Below, piece after piece: positions 3,187-57,715 of a DNA stretch of 64,000 nt. Position 1 is the first letter of the stretch; each line of letters starts with the position of its first letter. This DNA is from Malacoraja senta (Eukaryota), in the NCBI GenBank assembly GCA_038087875.1, contig CM075988.1:24244001-24308000 (forward strand). Direction: 5' to 3'. A program made the position numbers and the translations under genes. A model generated the notes under the pieces. The model was given only the letters and a program-made list of their open reading frames with translations. It was not told the DNA's origin and ran no database searches.

Positions 3187-3259
3187 CAAAGCTATAAACC
3201 TTTGTCCAAGAAACACTAGGCACATTACAAATGATAAACTGTGACCATAGGTTTAATAT

Positions 3260-3412
3260 GGGGTCAAGGAAAGAGCATTCACTTTGCAGCCCCGTTTCCA
3301 CCACCACACACAAGAAGCGACAAGACAGACACCACTGTATGCAGATGCCGAGAGGTGTGCTCAGCTCTGGCTGAACAACTTCCAATCTTGTGTGTAGACT
3401 CGATAAGAAGAA
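3260..3412 (+). mobile_element. Ribozyme-headed short retroposon, family B (degenerate copy)
   Basis: Homologous to 22616-22795; ends gataagaagaa; direct repeat tttaatatgg at 3252-3261 and 3416-3425. Confidence 0.85.
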
Positions 3413-3735
3413 ACATTTAATATGGAGTTTAATTTTAACTTGAGGGTTCCTTTCATAGGCTCCACATACAATACAACAGGGTTGGACAAGGTGGTAAGTG
3501 TGACTCAAAGCTGCTGGACCGGTGCAGACACAAGCTGTGAGGTAGTTACTTCACCAGCAATCCAGTTATCACTGGTGTACCAGAGATCAAAGAAAATCCA
3601 CTCAATTATGGATTCTCAATAAGGAAGGGAGAACTATACCAAGTTGGTCAACTGCCAGAGCTCACTACTCACAACATCAGCACTCGCACAAGTCAGGAGT
3701 GTTGCAACCTACAGCATACTTGGTGTTTCCTTAAC

Positions 3736-20986: not shown

Positions 20987-22615
20987 TGTAGTTGTATGTT
21001 TTCTATGATTCGTTGAATAAAGACTTTAAGCGATTATTTGACCAGTTTCCCCCTTCCTATTCTGACTCACCTGAATTTAAAAGCTACATTTTAAGTGTGT
21101 GATGTACAGCCTCCCTTTGTGCCCTTGAGGTGTCATCACGTCTTTGAGCGGCATATTTGGTAACACACTGTACACAACATCTCTGCAACTCGTTGTTTCT
21201 TCTTAAGAGTATAAAAGTAGAACTTGACCCAATCAAATCATGACTCCAAAGGATAGTGTTCGTGTGCAGGCATTGCTAGTCAGTACGGACTCGGTGGGCC
21301 GAAGGGCCTGTTTCCGCATTGTATCTCTAAACTAAACTAAGAATGACATATTTTTGGCTGAAATCTTTCTGATATGCATTTGTTTTAGATTCCCCACACA
21401 TTTATCCAATATTCCTATTAAACGTGCTTTGATAAAGCCTTCTGTGCTGCAAAAATCACAGCTTAAAGAAGCCTCCCCTAACCTCTCTGTTCTCATTCCC
21501 AGTCTGATGTCGTGGACACAGCTTGCCTATTCACCCTTCATAATGTTATTAAACCTGACTAAATCTCCTCTTGGCTATTTTTGTTTTAATGTACAGTCCC
21601 GATTCCGCAAGCCTACCTTCAACATTTTAATTGCACCCATTGAAATTTTATTTTCTCAGCGCCAACGTTAAAGAGATTTTAGGTTTTTTTTCCAAGCAAT
21701 TTTAACTTTGCTTGAAGATGTAACTGAATTATTAATTTGCAGAGATTGGCTGCTGTCCATGTCAGCCTACGCAAGCCGTAGTCATACATTTTAGCTCCAA
21801 ATTAATGTTTATTAATGATTATATAACTTGGCAAACACACAGTGCTTTCGGACGGGAATCATCTGATAGCTGAGAAAGTAGCAGGGTGGTGGCTAACAGC
21901 TGAGTGAGAAGCTACAAATGGTTCAGGGAGGAGGTAAGGGAAGATGGTCAGAGGCCAAATGCCAATTCACCACAAAGATCAGCTTGCTTTCATAAAGTGC
22001 CATTCAAATAAGAAATCATTCCAAGAGACGCACTAACAAAAGAAGGGCCCGGAGCCAAAGGAAGAGGAAATGGACCATTAAAAGCTAAGTGAACCCTTAG
22101 GATTTATGAATGGTAGAATGATGCAGGAGCTTACAGAGTGAATATCGGAATGTGGAGCCTGGGAAGATGAAAGCACAACCACCAATGATTCAGCAAACAG
22201 AAAAGGCAATGATCAGAGTACAGGAATGGGAGGAACCTATGCCTCAAAACCCCAGTGCATCTTAAATGTAAACTAGAATGGTAACATCTCAGCGGTGGCC
22301 CCACGGCACCAAATTTCAGTTGTGATTGAGGTCCAAGACCATTGGAGTTGCCAATCTCCCACCGTCAGAGGCCAGCCCCATGGGCATTGGGACTCATTGG
22401 TCATGGTTGGAGTAGAGGCAGGGCAGAGCAACGGAGCCCAAGGTTTCGTTGGTTGGAGGAAGTGAGTGGGAGTTGCGAGTGGTAAAGGAAGTTCAATGTG
22501 TAGGAAGGAACTGCAGATGCTGGTTTGAACCGAAGATAGACACAAAATGCTGGAGTAACTCAGCGGGACAGGCGGCATCTCTGCACCTATTTTCTATGTT
22601 TATATGACTGTTGGC

Positions 22616-22668
22616 GGGGTCAAGGAAAGAGCGTTCATGTCGCGGCCCCTGTTTCCACCAATCTTTCC
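22616..22668 (+). ncRNA. Minimal HDV-like (CPEB3-like) ribozyme
   Basis: P1 GGGGTC/GGCCCC(T), P2 GGAAAGA/TCTTTCC, P3 GCG/CGC, L3 TTCATGT, J4/2 ACCAA, in the canonical nested double-pseudoknot order. Confidence 0.8.
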
Positions 22669-22795
22669 ACCACCACGCACAAGAAGACACAAGAAGCGAC
22701 AAGACAGACACCATTGTGTGCAGATGCCGAGAAGTGTGCTCAGCTCTGGCTGAACAACTTCTAATCTTGTGTGTGGTGGACTCGATAAGAAGAAG
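22616..22795 (+). mobile_element. Ribozyme-headed short retroposon, family B
   Basis: 12-bp TSD atgactgttggc at 22604-22615 and 22796-22807; HDV-like fold at the 5' end; ends gataagaagaag. Confidence 0.9.
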
Positions 22796-22877
22796 ATGAC
22801 TGTTGGCAGATCAATTTCCCTCCTGGGATAAATAAAGTTCTATCGTACTGTCTCGTACCATATCGTATGATAGGTTT

Positions 22878-22999
22878 GGGGTGAGAGATTGCAACCTGTT
22901 TCGACGAATGCAATCAACGCGACGTGCACAAACAAATAGATCAAATAGAACAAGTTGACCCACAACTTTAGGCTGTGCACGCCATACGCAAGAAGAAGA
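22878..22999 (+). mobile_element. Ribozyme-headed short retroposon, family A (internally deleted copy)
   Basis: Homologous to the reverse complement of 32223-32366; 16-nt deletion in the ribozyme core; imperfect TSD gtatg(a/g)tagg. Confidence 0.85.
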
Positions 23000-27000: not shown

Positions 27001-27883
27001 TCCTTTAAGGACTGAGTACCAATTCATTTCACTGTGCCTTCGTTGGTACATGTGCCAAATAAAGTTGACTTTGGCTTTGACAGTTGTGGAGTGATTTGAG
27101 TCATGTGGTATATTCATGTCTTACCAGTCTCGTGAATGTGTGTGCGGTTATGCGCGGTGTACTTTTGTAAAATATAGAAGACCCACCCTGGCAACCGCTT
27201 GACTGAAACCAGCGTTACTTTCCATCCTCTGCCACTACCGTGATATCTTACAACTCCAGCAGCTCCCATTCACCTCCCTCAACGTTCTAATCCCAGAAAT
27301 CCATACTGGTGCCTTTCCAGAAATGTTGACTTTGTGCTTCATTTGTTGTGCGTGGCCCAGTGTTCCACAACTCTACCCTTTTGATGGTAAACCACCTGTG
27401 CCAATGGCCACCTTTATTCACATCACATATTGAACAGGTAAACTGGCCTCTTCAATCATCTTTGTCATCTTTGTCAATAACCCCATCATGAAATCTTCAA
27501 TAAGGTCATTTCAACACCTTTTGTTTAAACCAATGAGAACAACTTTCGTATCCTATTTTATAATTTGAATATCAAGAACTATTTTGGTTGTTATTTTCTG
27601 CTTAACGTTGTTTTTATAATTTGCTAGCCAGAACTGTACCCAACACCCAATATAAAGTTTGACTGGTATTTTAAAATGTTATTCCTTGTATTTCACACAG
27701 TTCAACAGGTGAAAACGCCATTGTGTGATTGAGACAGGCCTAATGTAAGTGGAGATGGAGATGGTGTACAAGTGGTGGCGGTTTGGAGGTTACACACATG
27801 CACGGGGAAAGGGACCAATTGGATGTACTGACAGAATCAGAGCAGATTAGCCTGAGCTTACATGGGGCAATACCAGCATGGAT

Positions 27884-28019
27884 CTTCTTCTTGCGTGTGG
27901 CGTGCACAGCCTAAAGTTGTAGGTCAACTTGTTCTATTTGATCTCTTGTTTGTGCACGCCAGGTTGATTGCATTAGTCGAAACAGGGCGGACCAGGTGAA
28001 GGTTGCAATCTCCCACCCC
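27884..28019 (-). mobile_element. Ribozyme-headed short retroposon, family A
   Basis: 10-bp TSD cagcatggat at 27874-27883 and 28022-28031; HDV-like fold at 28019-27966; (AAG)n tail. Confidence 0.9.
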
Positions 28020-28044
28020 GTCAGCATGGATGAGATGGGTTAAA

Positions 28045-30239: not shown

Positions 30240-30742
30240 GACTTTAGACTTCAGCGATACAGTGCATAAACAGGCCCTTCAGCCCACCAAGTCCATGCCA
30301 ACCAGCAATCACCCTGTAGACTAGCACTATGCTACACACTAGGGACAATTTACAATTCACCGAAGCCAATTAACTTACAAACCTGTTTAAGAAGGAACTG
30401 CAGATGCTGGAAAATCGAAGGCAGACAAAAGTGCTGGAGAAACTCAGCGGGTGCAGCAACATCTATGGAGCGAAGGAAATAGGCAACGTTTCGGCCCGAA
30501 ATGTTGCCTATTTCCTTCGCTCCATAGATGCTGCTGCACCCGCTGAGTTTCTCCAGCACTTTTGTCTAACCTACAAACCTGTGTGTCTTTGGAGTGTGGG
30601 AGGAAACTGGAGCACCTAGAGAACAGGAAGAACATACAAACTCCGTACAGACGGCAACCGTAGTCAGGATCAAACACGTAGTCAGGATCAAACCCGGGTC
30701 TCTGGCGATGTAAGGCAGCAACTCTACCGCTGCGCCACCGTG
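30240..30742 (-). mobile_element. V-SINE with a Penelope palindrome inserted (30387-30566)
   Basis: SINE motifs on both sides; TSD taac(t/c)tacaaacctgt at 30371-30386 and 30567-30582. Confidence 0.88.
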
Positions 30743-30999: not shown

Positions 31000-31293
31000 A
31001 GGGTCTGAAGAAGGGTTTCGGACCGAAACGTTGCCTATTTCCTTCGCACCATAGATGCTGACCTATGTTTGACCTTTACAGTGAAGGCAGACAAAAGTGC
31101 TGGAGAAACTCAGCGGGTGCAGCAGCATCTATGGAGCGAAGGAAATAGGCAACGTTTCGGCCCGAAACCCTTTCGGGTTTCGTCCCGAAACGTTGCCTAT
31201 TTCCTTCAGGGTTTCGTCCCGAAACGTTGCCTATTTCCTTCGCTCCATAGATGCTGCTGCACCCGCTGAGTTTCTCCAGCATTTTTGTCTACC
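31000..31293. mobile_element. Complex Penelope-derived palindrome
   Basis: ctgaagaagggtttcggaccgaaacgttg core plus nested inverted and tandem arms; direct repeat atcagtaaaataaaa on both sides. Confidence 0.85.
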
Positions 31294-32012: not shown

Positions 32013-32222
32013 CAAAAACGCCGGAGAAACTCAGCGGGTGAGGCAGCATCTATAGCCCGAAAGGTCGCCTATTCCTTTGCTCCATAGATGCTATAGAAGA
32101 TATGTCCCTATAGAAGATAGTTTCGGGTCGAGACCCTTCTTCAGACTGATGTGGACTAAGGGAATGGTTGGGGAATAGCATCTACAAATTATTAGTGGCC
32201 TCATTGAAGCATACAGAATAGT

Positions 32223-32366
32223 TTTATTCTTCTTCTTGTGTATGGCGTGCACAGCCTAAAGTTGGAGGTCAACTTGTTCTATTTGATGTTATTTGATTGT
32301 GCACGCCGGGTTGATTGCATTAGTCGAAACAGGGTGGACCACGTGAAGGTTGCAATCTCCCACCCC
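32223..32366 (-). mobile_element. Ribozyme-headed short retroposon, family A (best copy)
   Basis: 12-bp TSD atacagaatagt at 32211-32222 and 32367-32378; tail AAGAAGAAGAATAAA. Confidence 0.92.
32313..32366 (-). ncRNA. Minimal HDV-like ribozyme (54 nt)
   Basis: GGGGTGG GA GATTGCA ACC TTCACGT GGT CCACCCT GTTTCGA CTAA TGCAATC: P1 7 bp with G1-U wobble, P2 7 bp, P3 3 bp, L3, catalytic-C J4/2 CUAA. Confidence 0.87.
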
Positions 32367-32369
32367 ATA

Positions 32370-32730
32370 CAGAATAGTGAAAGGCCTGGATAGAGTGGAT
32401 GTGGAGAGGAATTTTCCACTAGTGGGAGGGTCCAGGACCAGAGGTCATAGCCTCAGAATTAAAGGACGTTCTTTTAGGAAGGAGATGAATGTATCTAGTC
32501 AGAGGGTGGTGAATCTGTGGAATTCTTTGCCACAGAAGGCTGTGGAGGCCACAAGTCAGTGGATATTTTTAAGGCAGAGATAGATAGATTCTTGATTAGT
32601 ACGGGTGTCGGAGGTTATGGGAAGAAGGCAGGAGAATGGGGTTTGGATGGAGAGATAGATCAGCCATGGTTGAATGACGGAGTAAACCTGATGGGCCGAA
32701 TGGTCTAATTCTGCTCCTATTACCTATGAC
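32370..32730 (+). mobile_element. CR1 3' fragment
   Basis: KGLDRVDVERNFP...RTRGHSLRIKG. Confidence 0.9.
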
Positions 32731-32894: not shown

Positions 32895-34938
32895 GTGCAT
32901 CCGTGGATAACAAGGGAAATCAGGGATAGTATCAACACAAAAGAGGAAGCCTACAAATTAGCCAGAACAAGCAGCCTACCAGAGGACTGGGAGAAATTCA
33001 GAGTCCTGCAGAGGAGGACAAAAGGCTTAATTAGGAAAGGGAAAATAGATTATGAAAGAAAATTGGCAGGGAACATAAAAACTGACTGCAAATGTTTTTA
33101 TAGATATGTCAAGAGGAAAAGATTAGTTAAAACAAATGTAGGTCCCTTGCAGTCAGAAACAGGCGAATTGATCATGGGGAACAAGGACATGGCAGACCAA
33201 TTGAATAATTACTTTGGTTCTGTCTTCACTAAGGAAGACATAAATAATCTGCCGGAAATAGCAAGGGACCGGGGGTTAAATGAGATGGAGGAACTGAGTG
33301 AAATCCAGGTTAGCCGGGAAGTGGTGTTAGGTAAATTGAATGGATTAAAGGCCGATAAATCCCCAGGGCCGGATAAGTTGCATCCCAGAGTACTTAAGGA
33401 AGTAGCCCCAGAAATAGTGGATGCATTAGTGATCATTTTTCAAAACTCTTTAGAGTCTGGAGTAGTTCCTGAGGAGTAGCTAATGTAACCGCACTTTTTA
33501 AAAAGGGAGGGAGAGAGAATGCGAGGAATTACAGACCAGTTAGTCTAACATCGGTGGTGGGGAAAATTCTGGAGTCAGTTATTAAAGATGGGATAGCAGC
33601 ACATTTGGAAAGTGGTGAGTTCATTGGACAAAGTCAGCATGAAAGGTAAATCATGTCTGACGAATCTTATAGAATTTTTCGAGGATGTAACTAGTAGAGT
33701 GGATAAGGGAGAACCAGTGGATGTGTTATATCTGGACTTTCAGAAGGCTTTCGACAAGGTCCCACATAAGAGATTAGCATACAAACTTAAAGCACATGGT
33801 ATTGGGGGTTCAGTATTGATGTGGATAGAGAACTGGCTGGCAGACAGGAAGCAAAGAGTAGGAGTAAACGGGTCCTTTTCAGAATGGCAGGCAGTGACTA
33901 GTGGGGTACCGCAAGGCTCAGTGCTGGGACCCCAGCTAATTACAATATATATTAATGATCTGGATGAGGGAATTGAATGCAACATCTCCAAGTTGCGGAT
34001 GACACGAAGCTGGGGGGCAGTGTTAGCTGTGAGGAGGATGCTAGGAGGCTGCAAGGTGACTTGGATAGGTTGGGTGAGTGGGCAAAGGCATGGCAGATGC
34101 AGTATAATGTGGATAAATGTGAGGTTATCCACTTTGGTGACAAAAACAGGAAAGTAGACTATTATCTGAATGGTGGCCGATTAGGAAAAGGGGAGATGCA
34201 ACGAGACCTGGGTGTCATGGTACACCAGTCATTGAAAGTAGGAATGCAGGTGCAGCAGGCAGTGAAGAAAGCAAATGGTATGTTAGCATTCATAGCAAAA
34301 GGATTTGAGTATAAGAGCAGGGAGGTTCTACTGCAGTTGTACAGGGTCTTGGTGAGACTACACCTGGAGTATTGCGTACAGTTTTGGTCTCCAAATCTGA
34401 GGACAGACATTCTTGCCATAGAGGGAGTACAGAGAAGGTTCACCAGACTGATTCCAGACTGATTAGGGATGGCAGGACTTTCATATGAGGAAAGACTGGA
34501 TAGACTCGGCTTGTACACGTTGGAATTCAGAAGACTGAGGGGGGATCTTATAGAAACTTACAAAATTCTTATGGGGTTGGACAGGCTAGATGCAGGAAGA
34601 TTATTCCCGATGTTGGGGAAGTCCAGAACTAGGGGTCACAGTTTAAGATAAGAGGGAAGACTTTTAGGACCGAGATGAGGAAATCATTTTTTACACAGAG
34701 AGTGGTGAATCTGTGGAATTCTCTACCACAGAAGGTAGTTGAGGCCAGTTCATTGGCTATATTTAAGAGGGAGTTAGATGTGGCCCTTGTGGCTAAAGGG
34801 ATCAGGGGGTATGGAGAGAAGGCAGGGATGGGATACTGAGTTGGATGATCAGCCATGATCATATCAAATGGCGGTGCAGGCTCGAAGGGCCGAATGGCCT
34901 ACTCCTGCACCTATTTTCTATGTTTCTATGTTTCTATG
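32895..34938 (+). mobile_element. 5'-truncated CR1 LINE with disrupted ORF2 (reverse transcriptase)
   Basis: [47 protein letters not shown]-like LHLEYCVQFW motifs over several frames; CR1 3' UTR. Confidence 0.97.
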
Positions 34939-37290: not shown

Positions 37291-37603
37291 GCTACTGAGT
37301 TTCTAGAACTGTTCTCTCATATTGGTGAATAGTTGTTTGAAGAAGATTTTAAAGGCAGTGGTGATGTGGGGGGGGGGGGGGGGGGAGCAGCGGGTGAATA
37401 TAGAACAGTTAGCCTGACATCAGTAATAAGGAATTATTAAGGAGATAATTACAGGGATTTGGAACATAATCCCTTCTCCTTCTCTCCAGAGATGCTGCCT
37501 GTCCTGCTGAGTTTTTTGTGTCTATCTTCGGTTTAAACCAGCATCTGCAGTTCCTTCCTACACATAATGATAGGATTGTGTGGAGTCCAATGGATGTTTC
37601 ATT

Positions 37604-37765
37604 AAGCAGAAACAAAGAACTGCAGATGCTGGTTCATACCACAGATAGACACAAAGTGCCGGAATAACTCAGCGGGTCAGGCAGCATCTCTGGAGAAAAA
37701 GGATCCATGATGTCCAGAGATGCTGGGTGACCCGCTGAGTTATTCCGGCATTTTGTGCCGATATT
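37604..37765. mobile_element. Penelope-derived palindromic insertion
   Basis: Inverted arms; 13-bp TSD tggatgtttcatt at 37591-37603 and 37766-37778. Confidence 0.85.
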
Positions 37766-42298: not shown

Positions 42299-42459
42299 TT
42301 CAAGAAGGAACTGCAGATGCCTGAAAATCGAAGGTAGACAAAAATGCTGGAGAAACTCAGTGGGTGCGACAGCATCTATAGAGCGAAGGAAATAGGCAAC
42401 GTTTCGGGCCGGATCGTTGCCTATTTCCTTCGCTCCACAGATGCTGTCGCACCCGCTGA
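42299..42459. mobile_element. Penelope-derived palindromic insertion
   Basis: 15-bp TSD gtttatgaatgaatg at 42284-42298 and 42460-42474. Confidence 0.88.
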
Positions 42460-45524: not shown

Positions 45525-45682
45525 GTGGGAAGGAACTGCAGATGCTGGTTTAAACCGAAGATAGACACAAAATGCTGGAGTAACTCAACGGGATAGGCAG
45601 CATCTCTGGAGAGAAGGAATTCCTTCTCTCCAGATATGCTGCCTGTCCCGCTGAGTTTCTCCAGTATTTTGTGTCTATCTTC
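45525..45682. mobile_element. Penelope-derived palindromic insertion
   Basis: Inverted arms centred on agaaggaattccttct. Confidence 0.85.
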
Positions 45683-55229: not shown

Positions 55230-57218
55230 AGGTACACAAAAATGCTGGAGAAACTCAGCGGGTGCAGCAGCATCTATGGAGCGAAGGAAATAGGTAACGT
55301 TTCGGGCCGAAACCCTTCTTCAGACTGATAGGGGGTGGGGAGAAGAAAGGAAAAAAGGACAAAGGCGGAGGAGGAGCCCGAGGGCTGGGGGAGGGGAGGA
55401 GACAACCAGATGGCTGATGAAGGGGAGGGGACAGCAAGGGCTAGCAGAATTGGGAGAATTCAATGTTGAGGCCCCCAGGATGTAGACTGCCCAAGCGGAA
55501 TATGAGGTGCATTTCCTCCAATTTACGGTGTTGCTCGCTGTGGCCATGGAGGAGACCCAGGACAGAGAGGTCAGATACGGAATTGGAGGGGGAGTTGAAG
55601 TGCTGAGCCACCGGGAGTTCAGGTTGGTTATTGCGGACCGACCGGAGGTGTTCGGCGAAACGATCGCCAAGCCTCCGCTTGGTCTCACCGATGTAGATCA
55701 GCTGGCATCTAGAGCAGCGAATGCAATAGATGAGGTTGGAGGAGATGCAGGTGAACCTCTGTCGCACCTGGAACGACTGCTTGGGTCCTTGAATGGAGTG
55801 GAGGGGGGAGGTGAAGGGACAAGTGTTGCATCTCTTGCGGTTGCAAGGGAAAGTACCCGGGGAGGGGGTGGTATGGGAGGGAAGGGAAGAATTGACAAGG
55901 GAGTTACGGAGGGAGCGGTCTTTGCGGAAGGCAGACATGGGGGGAGATGGGAAGATGTGGCGAGTGGTGGGGTCACGTTGGAGGTGGCGAAACTGACGGA
56001 GGATCACTTGTTGTATGTGACGGCTGGTGGGGTGAAAGGTGAGGACTAGGGGGACTCTGCCTTTGTTGTGAGTGGGGGGATGGGGAGAGAGAGCAGTGTT
56101 GCGGGGTATGGCAGAGACCCTGGTGCGAGCCTCATCTATGGTGGAAGAGGGGAACCCCCGTTCCCTGAAGAATGAGGACATTTCAGATGCCCTGGTCTGG
56201 AACGCCTCATCCTGGGAGCAGATGCGGCGTAGACGGAGGAATTGGGAGTGGGGGATGGAGTCCTTACAGGAAGCAGGGTGGGAAGAAGTGTAGTCCAGAT
56301 AGCCATGGGAGTCGGTAGGTTTGTAGTGGATGTCGGTAAGGAGTCTATCACCTGCGATGGAGATAGTGAGGTCAAGGAATGGTAGGGAAGTGTCGGAAAT
56401 GGTCCAGGTGTATTTGAGTGCCGGATGGAAGTTGGTGGTGAAGCGGATGAAGTCAGTCAGTTGTGTGTGGGTGCAGGATGTGGCACCAAAACAATCATCG
56501 ATGTAGCGGAGGTAGGGGTCGGGGATGGGGCCCTGGTACGCATTGAACAAGGATTGTGCTACGTACCCGACAAAGAGGCAGGCGTAGCTGGGGCCCATGC
56601 GTGTGCCCATAGCTACGCCTTGTATTTGGAGGAAATGGGAGGAGTCAAATGAAAAGTTATTAAGTGTAAGTACCAGCTCCGCTAGGCGGAGGAGGGTGTC
56701 AGTGGCCGGGTATAGATTGCTTCTACGGTCGAGGAAAAAACGGAGGGCTTCGAGACCATCCTGGTGGGGGATGGAGGTGTACAGTGACTGGACGTCCATG
56801 GTGAAGATGAGGGGGTGAGGGCCTAGAGAGTGGAATGCGCGGAGATGACGGAGAGTGTCTGAGGTGTCTTGAACATAGGTGGGGAGGGATTTAACCAAGG
56901 GGGATAGGATGGAGTCGAGGTAGGTGGAGATGAGTTCGGTGGGGCACAAACAGGCAGAGACAATGGGTCTACCGGGACAGTCAGGTTTGTGGATTTTGGG
57001 GAGAAGGTAAAAGCGGGCTGTGCGGGGCTGGGGAACGATGAGGTTGGAGGCTCGTTCGGGCAGGGCGTGGGAGTGGATGAAGTCGGTGATGGTGCTGGAG
57101 ATGGTGGCCTGGTGCTCGTCAGTGGGGTCATGGTCCAGCGGTAAGTAGGAGGAGGTGTCCGAGAGTTGGCGCGTGGCCTCAGCTTTGTAGAGATCGACGC
57201 GCCAGACTACCACGGCAC
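55230..57218 (-). mobile_element. Young 5'-truncated Penelope-like element (Neptune group)
   Basis: 17-bp TSD ctccaaagacaaacagg at 55213-55229 and 57219-57235; uninterrupted ORF plus 3' UTR. Confidence 0.95.
55293..55325 (-). ncRNA. Minimal hammerhead ribozyme motif in the Penelope 3' UTR
   Basis: GU-CUGAAGA-A-GGGU(UUCG)GCCC-GAA-ACGU-U-AC; stem III reduced to palindromic ACGU; stem I short. Confidence 0.65.
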
Positions 57219-57222
57219 CTCC
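55441..57222 (-). CDS. Penelope-like reverse transcriptase + GIY-YIG endonuclease (5'-truncated, no native start)
   Basis: LPKIHK..GRPIVS, MDVQSLYTSIP, QGVAMGTRMGPSYA, LRYIDD, CNRKRCNTC linker, LIYCIRC..IYIGET..RF.EH. Confidence 0.93.
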   Translation of the reverse strand, partial: GGAVVVWRVDLYKAEATRQLSDTSSYLPLDHDPTDEHQATISSTITDFIHSHALPERASNLIVPQPRTARFYLLPKIHKPDCPGRPIVSACLCPTELISTYLDSILSPLVKSLPTYVQDTSDTLRHLRAFHSLGPHPLIFTMDVQSLYTSIPHQDGLEALRFFLDRRSNLYPATDTLLRLAELVLTLNNFSFDSSHFLQIQGVAMGTRMGPSYACLFVGYVAQSLFNAYQGPIPDPYLRYIDDCFGATSCTHTQLTDFIRFTTNFHPALKYTWTISDTSLPFLDLTISIAGDRLLTDIHYKPTDSHGYLDYTSSHPASCKDSIPHSQFLRLRRICSQDEAFQTRASEMSSFFRERGFPSSTIDEARTRVSAIPRNTALSPHPPTHNKGRVPLVLTFHPTSRHIQQVILRQFRHLQRDPTTRHIFPSPPMSAFRKDRSLRNSLVNSSLPSHTTPSPGTFPCNRKRCNTCPFTSPLHSIQGPKQSFQVRQRFTCISSNLIYCIRCSRCQLIYIGETKRRLGDRFAEHLRSVRNNQPELPVAQHFNSPSNSVSDLSVLGLLHGHSEQHRKLEEMHLIFRLGSLHPGGLNIEFSQFC

Positions 57223-57244
57223 AAAGACAAACAGGTTTGGAGGT

Positions 57245-57715
57245 TGTGTCGGAAGGAACTGGAGATGCTGGTTTATACCGAAGTTAGACACACAATGCTG
57301 GAGTAATTCAGCGGGCCAGGCAGCATCTCTGGATAAAAGGAATGGGTGACATTTCGGGTCGAGATCCTTCTTCAGACTGAGCGTCAGGGTAGAAGGAGTT
57401 TCAGAGAAGATGTGTAAAGATCAAAAGAGATGTAGATCAAGGAAAATGTAGAACAGACCATTGTTAGCTCAGAGAAGGTGACAACAAAACAAACAGAGAT
57501 ACCATGTAACCAGTGGGACAGTCAGACTGGTCGGAGAACAGGAGAGGGGGAGGGATGGAAAGTGAGGGAAAGCAAGGGTCACTTGAAGTTAGAGAAGTCA
57601 ATATTCATACAGCTGGGGTGTAGCGGGCCAGCATCTCTGGAGAAAAAGAATAGATGATGTTTTGGGTTGAGTCTGAAGAAGGAAAGTCAATATTCATATA
57701 CGAGGTGCTGTTCCT
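57245..57715 (-). mobile_element. Older Penelope 3' fragment of a different subfamily
   Basis: ccttcttcagactga hammerhead region; gagaagtcaatattcata ORF-end motif. Confidence 0.75.

What the first reader, a model, noticed from the sequence alone, without database searches (positions are those of the whole stretch)
32223..32366. 144-bp retroposon whose 5' end is exactly the cleavage site of a minimal HDV-like ribozyme (family A)
Seen (minus strand): GGGGTGG-GA-GATTGCA-ACC-TTCACGT-GGT-CCACCCT-G-TTTCGA-CTAA-TGCAATC. This gives P1 (7 bp, G1-U wobble), P2 (7 bp perfect), P3 (3 bp), a 7-nt L3 and J4/2 CUAA, all in HDV order, with P4 reduced to a UUCG-containing stub. G1 abuts a 12-bp TSD (atacagaatagt). 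A 10-bp stem GGCGTGCACA/TGTGCACGCC, enclosing an inner hairpin AAGTTG/CAACTT, leads to an AAGAAGAAG tail. No Pol III A/B boxes are visible. Established: HDV-like ribozymes define the 5' ends of R2, RTE and L1Tc/ingi elements. Inference: this is a promoterless, SINE-sized parasite released from read-through transcripts by self-cleavage and copied by a LINE RT, possibly an internally deleted Ingi/Vingi derivative. I do not know of a description of it in cartilaginous fish.
Basis: partly seen in the sequence, partly recalled or inferred. Interest (0 to 1): 0.9.

Follow-up and report, generated by a model that had tools for sequence, protein, structure and literature searches.

The report
Ribozyme-headed mini-retroposon parasitising an RTE-like LINE
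A 144-base jumping element present in roughly ten thousand copies starts exactly at the predicted cut site of a stripped-down HDV/CPEB3-type self-cleaving RNA and ends with the last bases of an RTE-like LINE. It is a ribozyme-defined parasite of that LINE, a known kind of element seen here at unusually high copy number in a probable cartilaginous fish.

Summary
Window 32223-32366 (-) is a 144-nt retroposon flanked by a 12-bp target-site duplication. Its first 54 nt fit the HDV-like double pseudoknot, with no P4.

- **A real family.** There are about 7,000 exact anchors, suggesting roughly 14,000 copies. Their 5' ends pile up at G1 and the duplications abut it.
- **A real ribozyme lineage.** The genome holds 39 matches above the Rfam CPEB3-ribozyme cut-off. 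The best one (64 bits, with P4) lies 35 nt upstream of the start of an endonuclease/RT ORF of RTE-like type.
- **Covariation.** That ribozyme, family A and a second P4-less family B in the same window share an identical unpaired core. Ten of 17 helix pairs differ by compensatory changes.
- **The LINE partner.** The last 37 nt of family A match (36/37) the end of an RTE-like ORF, its stop codon, short 3' UTR and (AAG)n tail.

Self-cleavage itself is not shown: one poly(A) RNA run gave no pile-up of read ends at G1. I rate it a new member of a known kind (R2 SIDEs, NARTc). No description was found in four literature searches; Repbase and Dfam could not be checked.

The parts
32223..32366 (-). 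Family A retroposon, copy 1 (144 nt), the finding itself
   Evidence: It is 100% identical to the query. 40 of 40 scored genome matches are 94-100% identical, and 39 of those 40 start at position 1.
32313..32366 (-). P4-less HDV/CPEB3-type ribozyme module. P1 32360-32366/32331-32337; P2 32351-32357/32313-32319; P3 32348-32350/32338-32340; L3 32341-32347; J1/4 plus stub 32324-32330; J4/2 CTAA 32320-32323, with the putative catalytic C at 32323.
   Evidence: Descriptor hit. RF02682 scores 17.5 bits over model 1-74 at exactly these borders, and RF00622 scores 13.5 bits; both are below the gathering scores. Covariation with family B and the LINE ribozyme.
32228..32264 (-). Segment shared with the 3' end of an RTE-like LINE: last codons, TAG stop inside CAACTTTAGG, about 25-nt 3' UTR and (AAG)n
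   Evidence: 36/37 identical to L092 252-288. L092 frame 2 aligns to the C-termini of 963-996-aa APE+RT proteins, E 8.7e-9 to 4.2e-7.
32244..32307 (-). 3' stem-loop: 10-bp stem (32298-32307 with 32244-32253) enclosing the hairpin AAGTTG/CAACTT (32270-32275 with 32259-32264)
   Evidence: Minimum-free-energy and centroid folds. The 5' arm was not found in the 230 nt of LINE sequence upstream of the shared segment in L092.
32223..32237 (-). (AAG)n / A-rich tail
   Evidence: All 30 listed copies end in AAGAAGAAG.
32211..32222 (.). Target-site duplication, 3' side of the element
32367..32378 (.). Target-site duplication, abutting G1
27883..28019 (-). Family A copy 2. TSD tccatgctg at 27874-27882 and 28022-28030, with 2 extra nt before G1. 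P1 pair 5 is U-G.
22878..22999 (+). Family A copy 3, with positions 21-33 of the ribozyme deleted
22616..22796 (+). Family B retroposon (181 nt). It has a related P4-less ribozyme at 22616-22668, a different body and an AAGAAGAAGA tail. TSD tgactgttggc at 22605-22615 and 22797-22807.
   Evidence: RF00622 scores 32.2-32.3 bits, E 1.6e-7. Sequence. Its 5' 17-mer occurs 1,506 times in the genome, control 0.
3260..3415 (+). Family B copy 2, with the ribozyme partly deleted. TSD tttaatat at 3252-3259 and 3416-3423.
   Evidence: RF00622 scores 23.3 bits. Sequence.

Best explanation
Family A is a non-autonomous, promoterless retroposon made of two functional modules.

**The 5' module (nt 1-54)** is a minimal HDV-family ribozyme of the CPEB3 type.
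- P4 is replaced by a 6-nt stub.
- It is homologous to the P4-bearing ribozyme that heads an RTE-like LINE in the same genome.
- Inferred: when a copy is transcribed as a passenger of a host or neighbouring transcript, the ribozyme cuts immediately 5' of G1. It needs no upstream sequence, and the cut gives the RNA its exact 5' end.

**The 3' module** is the last ~40 nt of the LINE (end of ORF, stop codon, short 3' UTR, (AAG)n tail).
- In the SINE this segment is clamped into a long hairpin.
- Inferred: the LINE's endonuclease/RT recognises it and primes target-primed reverse transcription. This produces full-length copies with 7-13-bp duplications that abut G1.

**Shown:** the anatomy, copy number, 5'-end pile-up, homology and covariation of the ribozyme, and the shared LINE 3' end.

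**Inferred:** catalysis, co-transcription, and use of the RTE-like enzyme.
For: **1. Ends of the copies**
- 39 of 40 scored genome matches start at position 1.
- Among copies chosen by their 3' 78 nt only, 26 of 31 start at position 1, 2 at position 2, 1 at position 3, and 2 have internal deletions.
- Of 48 distinct copies (61 hits minus 13 duplicates), 46 reach position 3 or earlier.
- 33 of those 46 have an exact TSD of 7-13 nt. In 25 it touches G1 directly. A control displaced by 25 nt gave 0 of 46.

**2. Abundance and completeness**
- An exact 5' 16-mer occurs 6,960 times and an exact 3' 16-mer 7,520 times. Reversed controls gave 2 and 0.
- In the first 18.86 Mb of contig C1 there are 84 5' anchors and 100 3' anchors, of which 61 are paired. 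That implies about 138 copies there, or roughly 14,000 genome-wide.

**3. The fold is not chance**
- The descriptor rate in shuffles is about 1.4e-6 per site.

**4. Family context**
- RF00622 run on the whole genome scored 60 matches, 39 at or above the 35-bit cut-off, best 64.2 bits. The same search gave 0 above the cut-off in 14 control genomes.
- The best match (L091) is a complete ribozyme with an 8-bp P4 (E 1.5e-17). It is followed after 35 nt by an ATG opening an ORF.
- That ORF's closest relatives (P0001 95%, P0003 92%) carry endonuclease domains. Further relatives are single 937-1014-aa Exo_endo_phos + RVT_1 proteins on 3.1-3.4-kb contigs.

**5. Covariation among A, B and the LINE ribozyme**
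- The unpaired core is conserved: L3 UUCACGU (UUCAUGU in the B copy), J1/4 G, J4/2 C-N-A-A.
- Ten of 17 helix pairs change on both sides (P1 pairs 5-7, P2 pairs 2-6, P3 pairs 1 and 3).
- 3 of 51 cells are non-canonical.

**6. High-share variants in four laid runs**
- Within the ribozyme they fall only at J1/2, the J4/2 N position, the stub, and two P1 positions that keep pairing (U-G/U-A, G-C/G-U).
- That is 5 positions in the 54-nt ribozyme against 18 in the next 86 nt. 32 further rows were not shown.

**7. The 3' end**
- A pattern test found about 15 places where the 3' anchor is preceded by a shared non-SINE sequence.
- One of these (L092) is the C-terminal end of an RTE-like ORF. Family A nt 103-139 match it 36/37.

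**8. P4 is dispensable**
- P4-less HDV-like ribozymes in retrotransposons are reported active: Bombyx R2, and an abalone example with 5 nt in place of P4 (PMC3774820, passages read).
Against: - **No cleavage evidence.** In the one raw RNA run laid (X24, poly(A), coded organism H), no place met the tool's criterion for many molecules beginning or ending.
- In that run at least 266 reads (139 + 127) run on past G1 into heterogeneous flanks, at a depth of about 500. Much of the RNA carrying copies is therefore uncut, antisense or from dead copies; sense and antisense could not be separated.
- **Rfam scores.** Family A itself scores only 12-17.5 bits, far below the gathering scores of 35 and 44.
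- **Weak P1.1.** It can form only one G-C pair.
- **LINE ends not linked.** The 5' end (L091) and the 3' end (L092) come from different loci and are not shown to belong to one family.
- **Origin of the ribozyme unresolved.** Family A's ribozyme is only 24/38 + 7/11 identical to L091's. Pattern searches found no LINE that continues from family A's own ribozyme (101 hits, almost all SINE copies with indels).
- **Limited within-family signal.** Within family A the only paired-position variants are CpG transitions, which would be common anyway.
Confidence: 0.78

Rival explanations
1. The ribozyme is a relic. The head descends from a LINE ribozyme but no longer cleaves. The exact 5' end would come from an internal Pol II or Pol III start site at G1, or from another processing event.
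For: - The RNA lay shows no pile-up at G1 and many read-through reads.
- P4 is lost and P1.1 is reduced to one pair.
- Rfam scores are 12-17.5 bits.
- In L1Tc the same 77 nt act as both promoter and ribozyme (PMC3383444, abstract seen in the listing).
Against: - There are no A/B boxes beyond chance, and no tRNA, 5S or 7SL similarity.
- All high-share variants inside the module are compatible with the fold.
- Two independent P4-less families (A, about 14,000 copies; B, at least 1,506) kept the core and compensated their helices while amplifying. That is hard to explain without selection on the fold.
Confidence: 0.12
2. The fold is kept for a role other than cleavage. It could be a binding site for the LINE protein, or it could help 5'-end integration or template handling. 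The 5' end would then be set by another nuclease.
For: - A review reports that R2 protein binds a pseudoknot within the 5' ribozyme region, independently of cleavage (PMC6765202, passage read).
- No cleavage signal is seen.
Against: - The catalytic-core letters (C of J4/2, L3) are conserved, not only the helices.
- The 5' end coincides to the nucleotide with the HDV cleavage position in 43 of 48 copies.
Confidence: 0.07
3. The resemblance is chance: an ordinary SINE whose first 54 nt happen to fit an HDV descriptor.
For: The Rfam matches for family A alone are not significant (E 0.1-0.5).
Against: - The descriptor rate is about 1.4e-6 per site.
- Homologous ribozymes above the curated cut-off occur in the same genome, one of them heading a LINE.
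- Ten of 17 pairs covary.
Confidence: 0.01

Closest known systems
R2 SIDEs and R2/R1 hybrid SIDEs of Drosophila (PMC3414825; abstract and passages read)
   Same: - Short, ORF-less elements built from a 5' HDV-like ribozyme, a few further nt, and the 3' end of a LINE.
- Not Pol III-transcribed; they rely on co-transcription and on the LINE's enzyme.
- The hybrids show that the ribozyme and the 3' end can come from different LINEs.
   Different: - SIDEs are site-specific in rDNA and low-copy, and their ribozymes were shown to cleave.
- Family A is dispersed with variable TSDs, has about 10^4 copies, parasitises an RTE-like LINE, lacks P4, and its cleavage is untested.
NARTc / L1Tc and the Pr77 ribozyme of trypanosomatids (PMC3185411, PMC4035085, PMC3383444; abstracts seen in the listing)
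   Same: A dispersed non-autonomous partner shares the LINE's 5' HDV-like ribozyme, which releases the RNA from co-transcripts.
   Different: - A different clade (ingi/L1Tc) in a different host.
- There the 77 nt also act as a promoter.
- NARTc is a truncated LINE, not a 144-nt element.
HDV-like ribozymes at the 5' ends of RTE and other LINEs (Ruminski et al. 2011, recalled and not held; cited in passages of PMC6765202, and PMC7761336)
   Same: The ribozyme sits at the 5' terminus of a promoterless APE-type LINE, just upstream of the ORF, as in L091.
   Different: The finding concerns the SINE-sized derivative and its minimal ribozyme. I could not see whether that paper lists vertebrate short derivatives.
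Mammalian CPEB3 ribozyme, Rfam RF00622
   Same: - L3 UUCACGU, the CCCUGU segment and J4/2 CGAAU are identical to the family consensus printed by cmscan.
- The LINE ribozyme L091 scores 64.2 bits against a cut-off of 35, and also shares P3 GCG/CGC and most of P2.
   Different: - CPEB3 is a single-copy intronic ribozyme of mammals with a P4.
- Family A has no P4, has different P1-P3 helices, and fails the cut-off.
P4-less R2 ribozymes of silkmoths and an abalone HDV-like ribozyme with 5 nt in place of P4 (PMC3774820, passages read)
   Same: Natural HDV-like ribozymes without P4, reported active.
   Different: Those have long J1/2 loops and sit in R2 or in other contexts.
Twister-variant ribozymes at the 5' end of Perere-3 (RTE clade) in Schistosoma mansoni (PMC8501958, passages read)
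   Same: An RTE-clade LINE with non-specific insertion and TSDs uses a 5' self-cleaving ribozyme.
   Different: A different ribozyme class.

Membership tests
HDV-like ribozyme family | Nested double pseudoknot in the order P1-J1/2-P2-P3-L3-P3'-P1'-J1/4-(P4)-J4/2-P2' | tested here: met
   P1 is 7 bp, P2 is 7 bp and P3 is 3 bp, all canonical or G-U.
HDV-like ribozyme family | Cleavage site immediately 5' of G1, with a G1-U wobble closing P1 and no upstream sequence needed | tested here: met
   This is met at the sequence level only. G1-U is present, and 43 of 48 copies begin at G1 with unrelated upstream flanks. The chemistry was not tested.
HDV-like ribozyme family | Catalytic C in J4/2 followed by N-A-A | tested here: met
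   CTAA in the window copy, CGAA in most sampled copies, CCAA in family B and CGAA in the LINE ribozyme.
HDV-like ribozyme family | L3 core and the P1.1 mini-helix | tested here: inconclusive
   L3 UUCACGU equals the RF00622 consensus. Only one G-C pair is available for P1.1 (the C of L3 with the G after P1).
HDV-like ribozyme family | P4 helix | tested here: not met
   P4 is replaced by the stub TTTCGA. According to PMC3774820 P4 stabilises the ribozyme but is not required, so this is not a disqualifying feature.
HDV-like ribozyme family | Curated Rfam score (RF00622 35 bits; RF02682 44 bits) | tested here: not met
   Family A scores 12.1-17.5 bits and family B 32.3 bits. The LINE ribozyme L091 scores 64.2 bits and meets the cut-off.
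HDV-like ribozyme family | Compensatory changes in the helices among relatives | tested here: met
   10 of 17 pairs change on both sides among A, B and L091, and 3 of 51 cells are non-canonical. Only three lineages were compared.
HDV-like ribozyme family | Divalent-ion-dependent self-cleavage | not testable with these tools
   The RNA lay gave no pile-up of ends at G1. This cannot settle the point.
Classical SINE (Pol III, with a tRNA/5S/7SL-derived head) | Internal A and B boxes, or similarity to tRNA, 5S or 7SL | tested here: not met
LINE-dependent non-autonomous element (SIDE-like) | 3' end shared with an autonomous LINE | tested here: met
   36/37 identity with L092, which encodes the C-terminus of an APE+RT-type ORF.
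LINE-dependent non-autonomous element (SIDE-like) | 5' end shared with the same LINE (internal-deletion origin) | tested here: inconclusive
   The fold and core are homologous, but identity to L091 is only 24/38 + 7/11. No LINE continuing from family A's own ribozyme was found. L091 and L092 have not been linked to each other.
LINE-dependent non-autonomous element (SIDE-like) | Target-site duplications, no ORF, and a simple-repeat tail | tested here: met
RTE clade (the partner LINE) | A single ORF of about 1,000 aa with APE and RT, a unit of about 3.2 kb and a very short 3' UTR (features recalled from Malik and Eickbush 1998, not read) | tested here: inconclusive
   - The ORF starts 35 nt after the ribozyme.
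- Relatives are 937-1014 aa with Exo_endo_phos + RVT_1 on 3.1-3.4-kb contigs.
- The stop codon lies 37 nt before the end of the element, tail included.
- No full copy was read and no RT phylogeny was made.
   No reference sequences were at hand. Nothing found here points to Ingi/Vingi.

The most novel reading that the evidence does not exclude
The ribozyme carried by this RTE-like LINE and its two SINE-sized offspring may be a true homologue of the mammalian CPEB3 ribozyme, not a convergent look-alike.

- The LINE version passes the curated 'mammalian CPEB3' model at 64 bits.
- It shares the catalytic core, but also P3 and most of P2. These helices are free to drift, as families A and B show.

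If so, the CPEB3 ribozyme would be the exapted 5' end of an ancient RTE-type element (or of a short derivative) that landed in the CPEB3 intron. These fish elements would then preserve the ancestral, mobile form.
Probability: 0.2. Interest if true: 0.8.

Novelty: new member of a known kind. Interest (0 to 1): 0.6.

Why it matters
- **Scale.** A self-cleaving ribozyme may stand in for the Pol III promoter in building a SINE-scale family, about 10^4 copies in a vertebrate. Ribozyme-headed short elements were previously documented as low-copy rDNA parasites or in trypanosomes.
- **A natural experiment on the HDV fold.** One genome holds a P4-bearing LINE version and two amplified P4-less versions with rewired helices.
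- **Annotation.** Genome annotators should expect thousands of minimal HDV-like motifs that fall below Rfam cut-offs.
- **Origin of the CPEB3 ribozyme.** Matches to the 'mammalian' CPEB3 model in a non-mammal, heading a LINE, make this question testable by phylogeny.

Tried and rejected
**Earlier findings.** The search of earlier findings by place and by sequence returned nothing.

**Whole-genome file.** Not available.

**Looking for the LINE partner**
- The 30 best RVT_1 loci are another LINE type (RVT_1 plus a weak zf-RVT hit). They hold no family A tail and no L091-like sequence.
- A search for other (AAG)n-tailed families in about 360 kb of held sequence found none.
- A pattern test upstream of the 5' stem arm gave 38 hits, nearly all SINE copies with indels.
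- A pattern test downstream of the ribozyme gave 101 hits, likewise, with no recurrent non-SINE continuation.

**Sequencing runs**
- No RNA holder was listed.
- Contig runs X1, X19 and X20 show the family in three more coded organisms. They cannot show RNA ends.

**Window ORFs for a host gene or taxon.** Only transposon ORFs were found.

**Papers**
- Ruminski 2011 and the Webb and Luptak 2011 review are not held.
- Four searches returned no paper describing such an element: HDV-like ribozyme/SINE/non-autonomous; HDV-like/ribozyme/shark/retrotransposon; self-cleaving ribozyme/SINE/cartilaginous; RTE/HDV-like/ribozyme/non-LTR.
- One further search ('ribozyme-terminated') returned nothing.
- Repbase and Dfam could not be consulted, so an existing library entry cannot be excluded.

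**Rejected idea.** I considered the best A-box and B-box matches at positions 5 and 37 as a hidden Pol III promoter. They are at shuffle level.

Full report
**1. The observation**

- A 12-bp duplication (atacagaatagt, 32211-32222 and 32367-32378) brackets a 144-nt insert.
- The first 54 nt of the insert can form P1 (7 bp, closed by G1-U), P2 (7 bp), P3 (3 bp), a 7-nt L3 and a J4/2 of CUAA in the HDV order. Six nucleotides stand where P4 would be.
- A 10-bp stem enclosing a 6-bp hairpin, followed by an AAG-repeat tail, fills the rest.
- A descriptor I wrote for this topology hit only this element and a second copy at 27883-28019 in the 128 kb of both strands.
- It hit 7 sites in 40 dinucleotide shuffles, about 1.4e-6 per position.
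- The insert sits inside another, even more abundant repeat (depths).

**2. It is a large family with a fixed 5' end**

*5' ends*
- The own genome (1.94 Gb) gave about 2,400 first-look candidates. 40 were scored at 94-100% identity, and 39 of those 40 start at position 1.
- That sample favours full-length copies, so I searched again with the 3' 78 nt only. Of 31 copies, 26 start at position 1, 2 at position 2 and 1 at position 3. Two have internal deletions of the ribozyme.

*Target-site duplications*
- The two searches gave 48 distinct copies (13 duplicates dropped). 46 of them reach position 3 or earlier.
- 33 of those 46 have an exact duplication of 7-13 nt.
- In 25 it touches G1, in 4 it is one base away, in 1 two bases and in 3 three bases. 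13 have no exact duplication of 7 nt or more.
- A displaced control found none in 46.

*Copy number*
- Exact 16-mers from the 5' and 3' parts occur 6,960 and 7,520 times (controls 2 and 0).
- Pairing them over the first 18.86 Mb of contig C1 gives 84 and 100 anchors, 61 of them paired. That suggests about 14,000 copies genome-wide, with little 5' truncation.
- The window holds three copies, the third with an internal deletion.

*Other species*
- Contigs of three further coded organisms, and RNA reads of a fourth, carry the family.

**3. The head is not a Pol III head**
- ARAGORN finds no tRNA.
- cmscan at E<=10 finds no tRNA, 5S or 7SL.
- The best A-box and B-box matches are at shuffle level (motifs recalled from memory).

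**4. The head belongs to a real ribozyme lineage**

*Rfam scores of family A alone*
- Alone, family A scores weakly against the two HDV-type Rfam models that matched at all: RF02682 at 17.5 and 14.4 bits, RF00622 at 13.5 and 12.1 bits. The cut-offs are 44 and 35.
- The RF02682 alignment runs end to end and begins exactly at G1. The RF00622 alignment also spans the whole model, which adds ~11 nt upstream of the cut site, and places G1 to within one base.
- L3 is identical to the CPEB3 consensus.

*RF00622 on the whole genome*
- Running RF00622 over the whole genome changed the picture. 60 matches were scored, 39 at or above the cut-off, the best at 64.2 bits.
- The same search gave none above the cut-off in 14 control genomes.

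*The best match: a LINE ribozyme*
- I could still fetch 251 nt around the best match (L091).
- It is a complete ribozyme with an 8-bp P4 (E 1.5e-17).
- After 35 nt comes an ATG and an ORF.
- Its closest relatives (95% and 92% identical) carry endonuclease domains.
- More distant relatives are single 937-1014-aa endonuclease + reverse-transcriptase proteins on 3.1-3.4-kb contigs.
- This architecture fits an RTE-type LINE. That label rests on recalled features, and no phylogeny was made.
- Its 5' 18-mer occurs only 10 times in the genome, 8 of them among the top RF00622 matches.

*Family B*
- One RF00622 match lies in the window itself (22604-22668; 32.2 bits on the whole-window scan, 32.3 bits at 22616-22668 on the close-up).
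- It heads a second SINE-sized family, B (22616-22796, with an 11-bp duplication and an AAG tail). A damaged copy lies at 3260-3415.
- Its 5' 17-mer occurs 1,506 times in the genome.

**5. Covariation**

I laid the family A ribozyme (window copy and L010), family B and the LINE ribozyme side by side.
- The unpaired core is constant: L3 UUCACGU (one CpG transition in the B copy), a G after P1, and C-N-A-A before P2'.
- Ten of the 17 helix pairs differ by changes on both sides.
  - P2: GATTGCA/TGCAATC in A, GGAAAGA/TCTTTCC in B, GGTAG.../...CTGCC in the LINE.
  - P3: ACC/GGT in A against GCG/CGC in B and the LINE.
  - P1 pairs 5-7: UGG/CCG(A) in A against AUC/GAU in the LINE.
- Three of 51 cells are non-canonical: two in B's P1 and one in the LINE's P2.
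- A and B share the same P4 replacement (GUUUCGA / GUUUCCA), so they probably descend from one P4-loss event.
- In the four laid runs, variants at 5% share or more fall inside the ribozyme only at five positions: J1/2, the stub, the N of J4/2, and two P1 positions that keep pairing.
- The next 86 nt have 18 such positions. 32 further rows were not shown.
- Only three lineages could be compared.

**6. The tail is the tail of an RTE-like LINE**
- Pattern tests showed no LINE sharing the region upstream of the 5' stem arm.
- A test placed further 3' gave 111 hits. About 15 of them shared a non-SINE sequence before the 3' anchor.
- I fetched one of these, 316 nt (L092). Its frame 2 aligns to residues ~880-970 of the 963-996-aa relatives (E 8.7e-9 to 4.2e-7). 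This copy has one in-frame stop.
- The ORF ends at a TAG inside CAACTTTAGG. About 25 nt of UTR and AAGAAGAAGA follow.
- Family A nt 103-139 match this 36/37.
- So the SINE's 3' module is the LINE's last codons, stop codon, UTR and tail.
- The 5' arm of the SINE's long stem is not in the 230 nt of LINE read upstream. It seems to be an addition of the SINE.

**7. Mechanism and what remains open**
- The anatomy matches the SIDE logic described for R2 (PMC3414825). A 5' ribozyme frees the RNA from a co-transcript, and a LINE 3' end recruits the enzyme.
- P4-less HDV-like ribozymes are reported active (PMC3774820).
- Catalysis is inferred, not shown. In poly(A) RNA of coded organism H the element is covered (depth about 130-220 and 240-355 in the two mate classes).
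- No position qualifies as a place where many molecules begin or end. At least 266 reads continue past G1 into diverse flanks.
- This argues against efficient cleavage of the bulk of transcribed copies.
- It cannot separate sense from antisense, young from decayed copies, or loss of 5'-OH fragments.
- The LINE 5' end (L091) and 3' end (L092) are from different loci and are not linked.
- Family A's ribozyme is diverged from L091's (24/38 + 7/11 identical). A hybrid origin, as in the R2/R1 SIDEs, is as likely as a simple internal deletion.

**8. Comparison and novelty**
- The kind is known. Examples are ribozyme-terminated LINEs including RTE (reviews PMC6765202 and PMC7761336; Ruminski 2011 recalled, not held), the R2 SIDEs, and NARTc.
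- New here are the scale (about 10^4 dispersed copies), the host, the RTE-like partner and the minimal CPEB3-type ribozyme.
- The host is a chordate. The best named matches to a window transposon ORF are elasmobranch.
- Four literature searches found no description. Repbase and Dfam could not be checked.

**9. Verdict**
- Interest is moderate to high. Part of it comes from the side observation that a LINE ribozyme in a non-mammal passes the 'mammalian CPEB3' model by a wide margin.

Noticed in passing
window 22616-22796 (+) and 3260-3415 (+): A second ribozyme-headed SINE-sized family (B). It has a P4-less CPEB3-type head (32.2-32.3 bits on RF00622), a different body and an AAG tail. Its 5' 17-mer occurs 1,506 times in the genome. 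Its consensus P1 appears to have two mismatches. Its LINE partner is unknown.
   Followed up: partly
L091 (G000:C21:8957950-8958200, minus strand), plus 59 further RF00622 matches listed: A non-mammalian genome holds 39 matches above the curated cut-off of the 'mammalian CPEB3 ribozyme' family. The best one heads an RTE-like LINE and shares P3 and most of P2 with the CPEB3 consensus as well as the core. This could mean common descent rather than convergence.
   Followed up: partly
window 32123-32158 and 32367-32466: The family A copy is inserted in another repeat. That repeat is even more abundant in all four laid runs. Loose-end consensus sequences show the uninterrupted form of that repeat.
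   Followed up: no
window 55441-57420 (-): A 659-aa open frame with RVT_1 and a weak GIY-YIG match, which is Penelope-like. Its best-matching named relatives are elasmobranch proteins at 63-74% identity.
   Followed up: partly
window 30438-30553, 31022-31270, 37520-37745, 42357-42459, 45578-45661: Sub-threshold matches to unrelated miRNA and plastid hairpin models occur on both strands of the same places. These look like long palindromic hairpins, perhaps inverted-repeat transposons.
   Followed up: no
G000, many loci, e.g. L071: A different LINE family has many copies with uninterrupted frames of up to 1,271 aa (RVT_1 plus a weak zf-RVT match). There are 159,857 first-look RT candidates genome-wide. 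It is not related to family A's tail.
   Followed up: partly
window 33597-34157 (+): A reverse-transcriptase fragment (RVT_1, E 6.8e-15) lies 1.2 kb from the family A copy. It was not classified.
   Followed up: no
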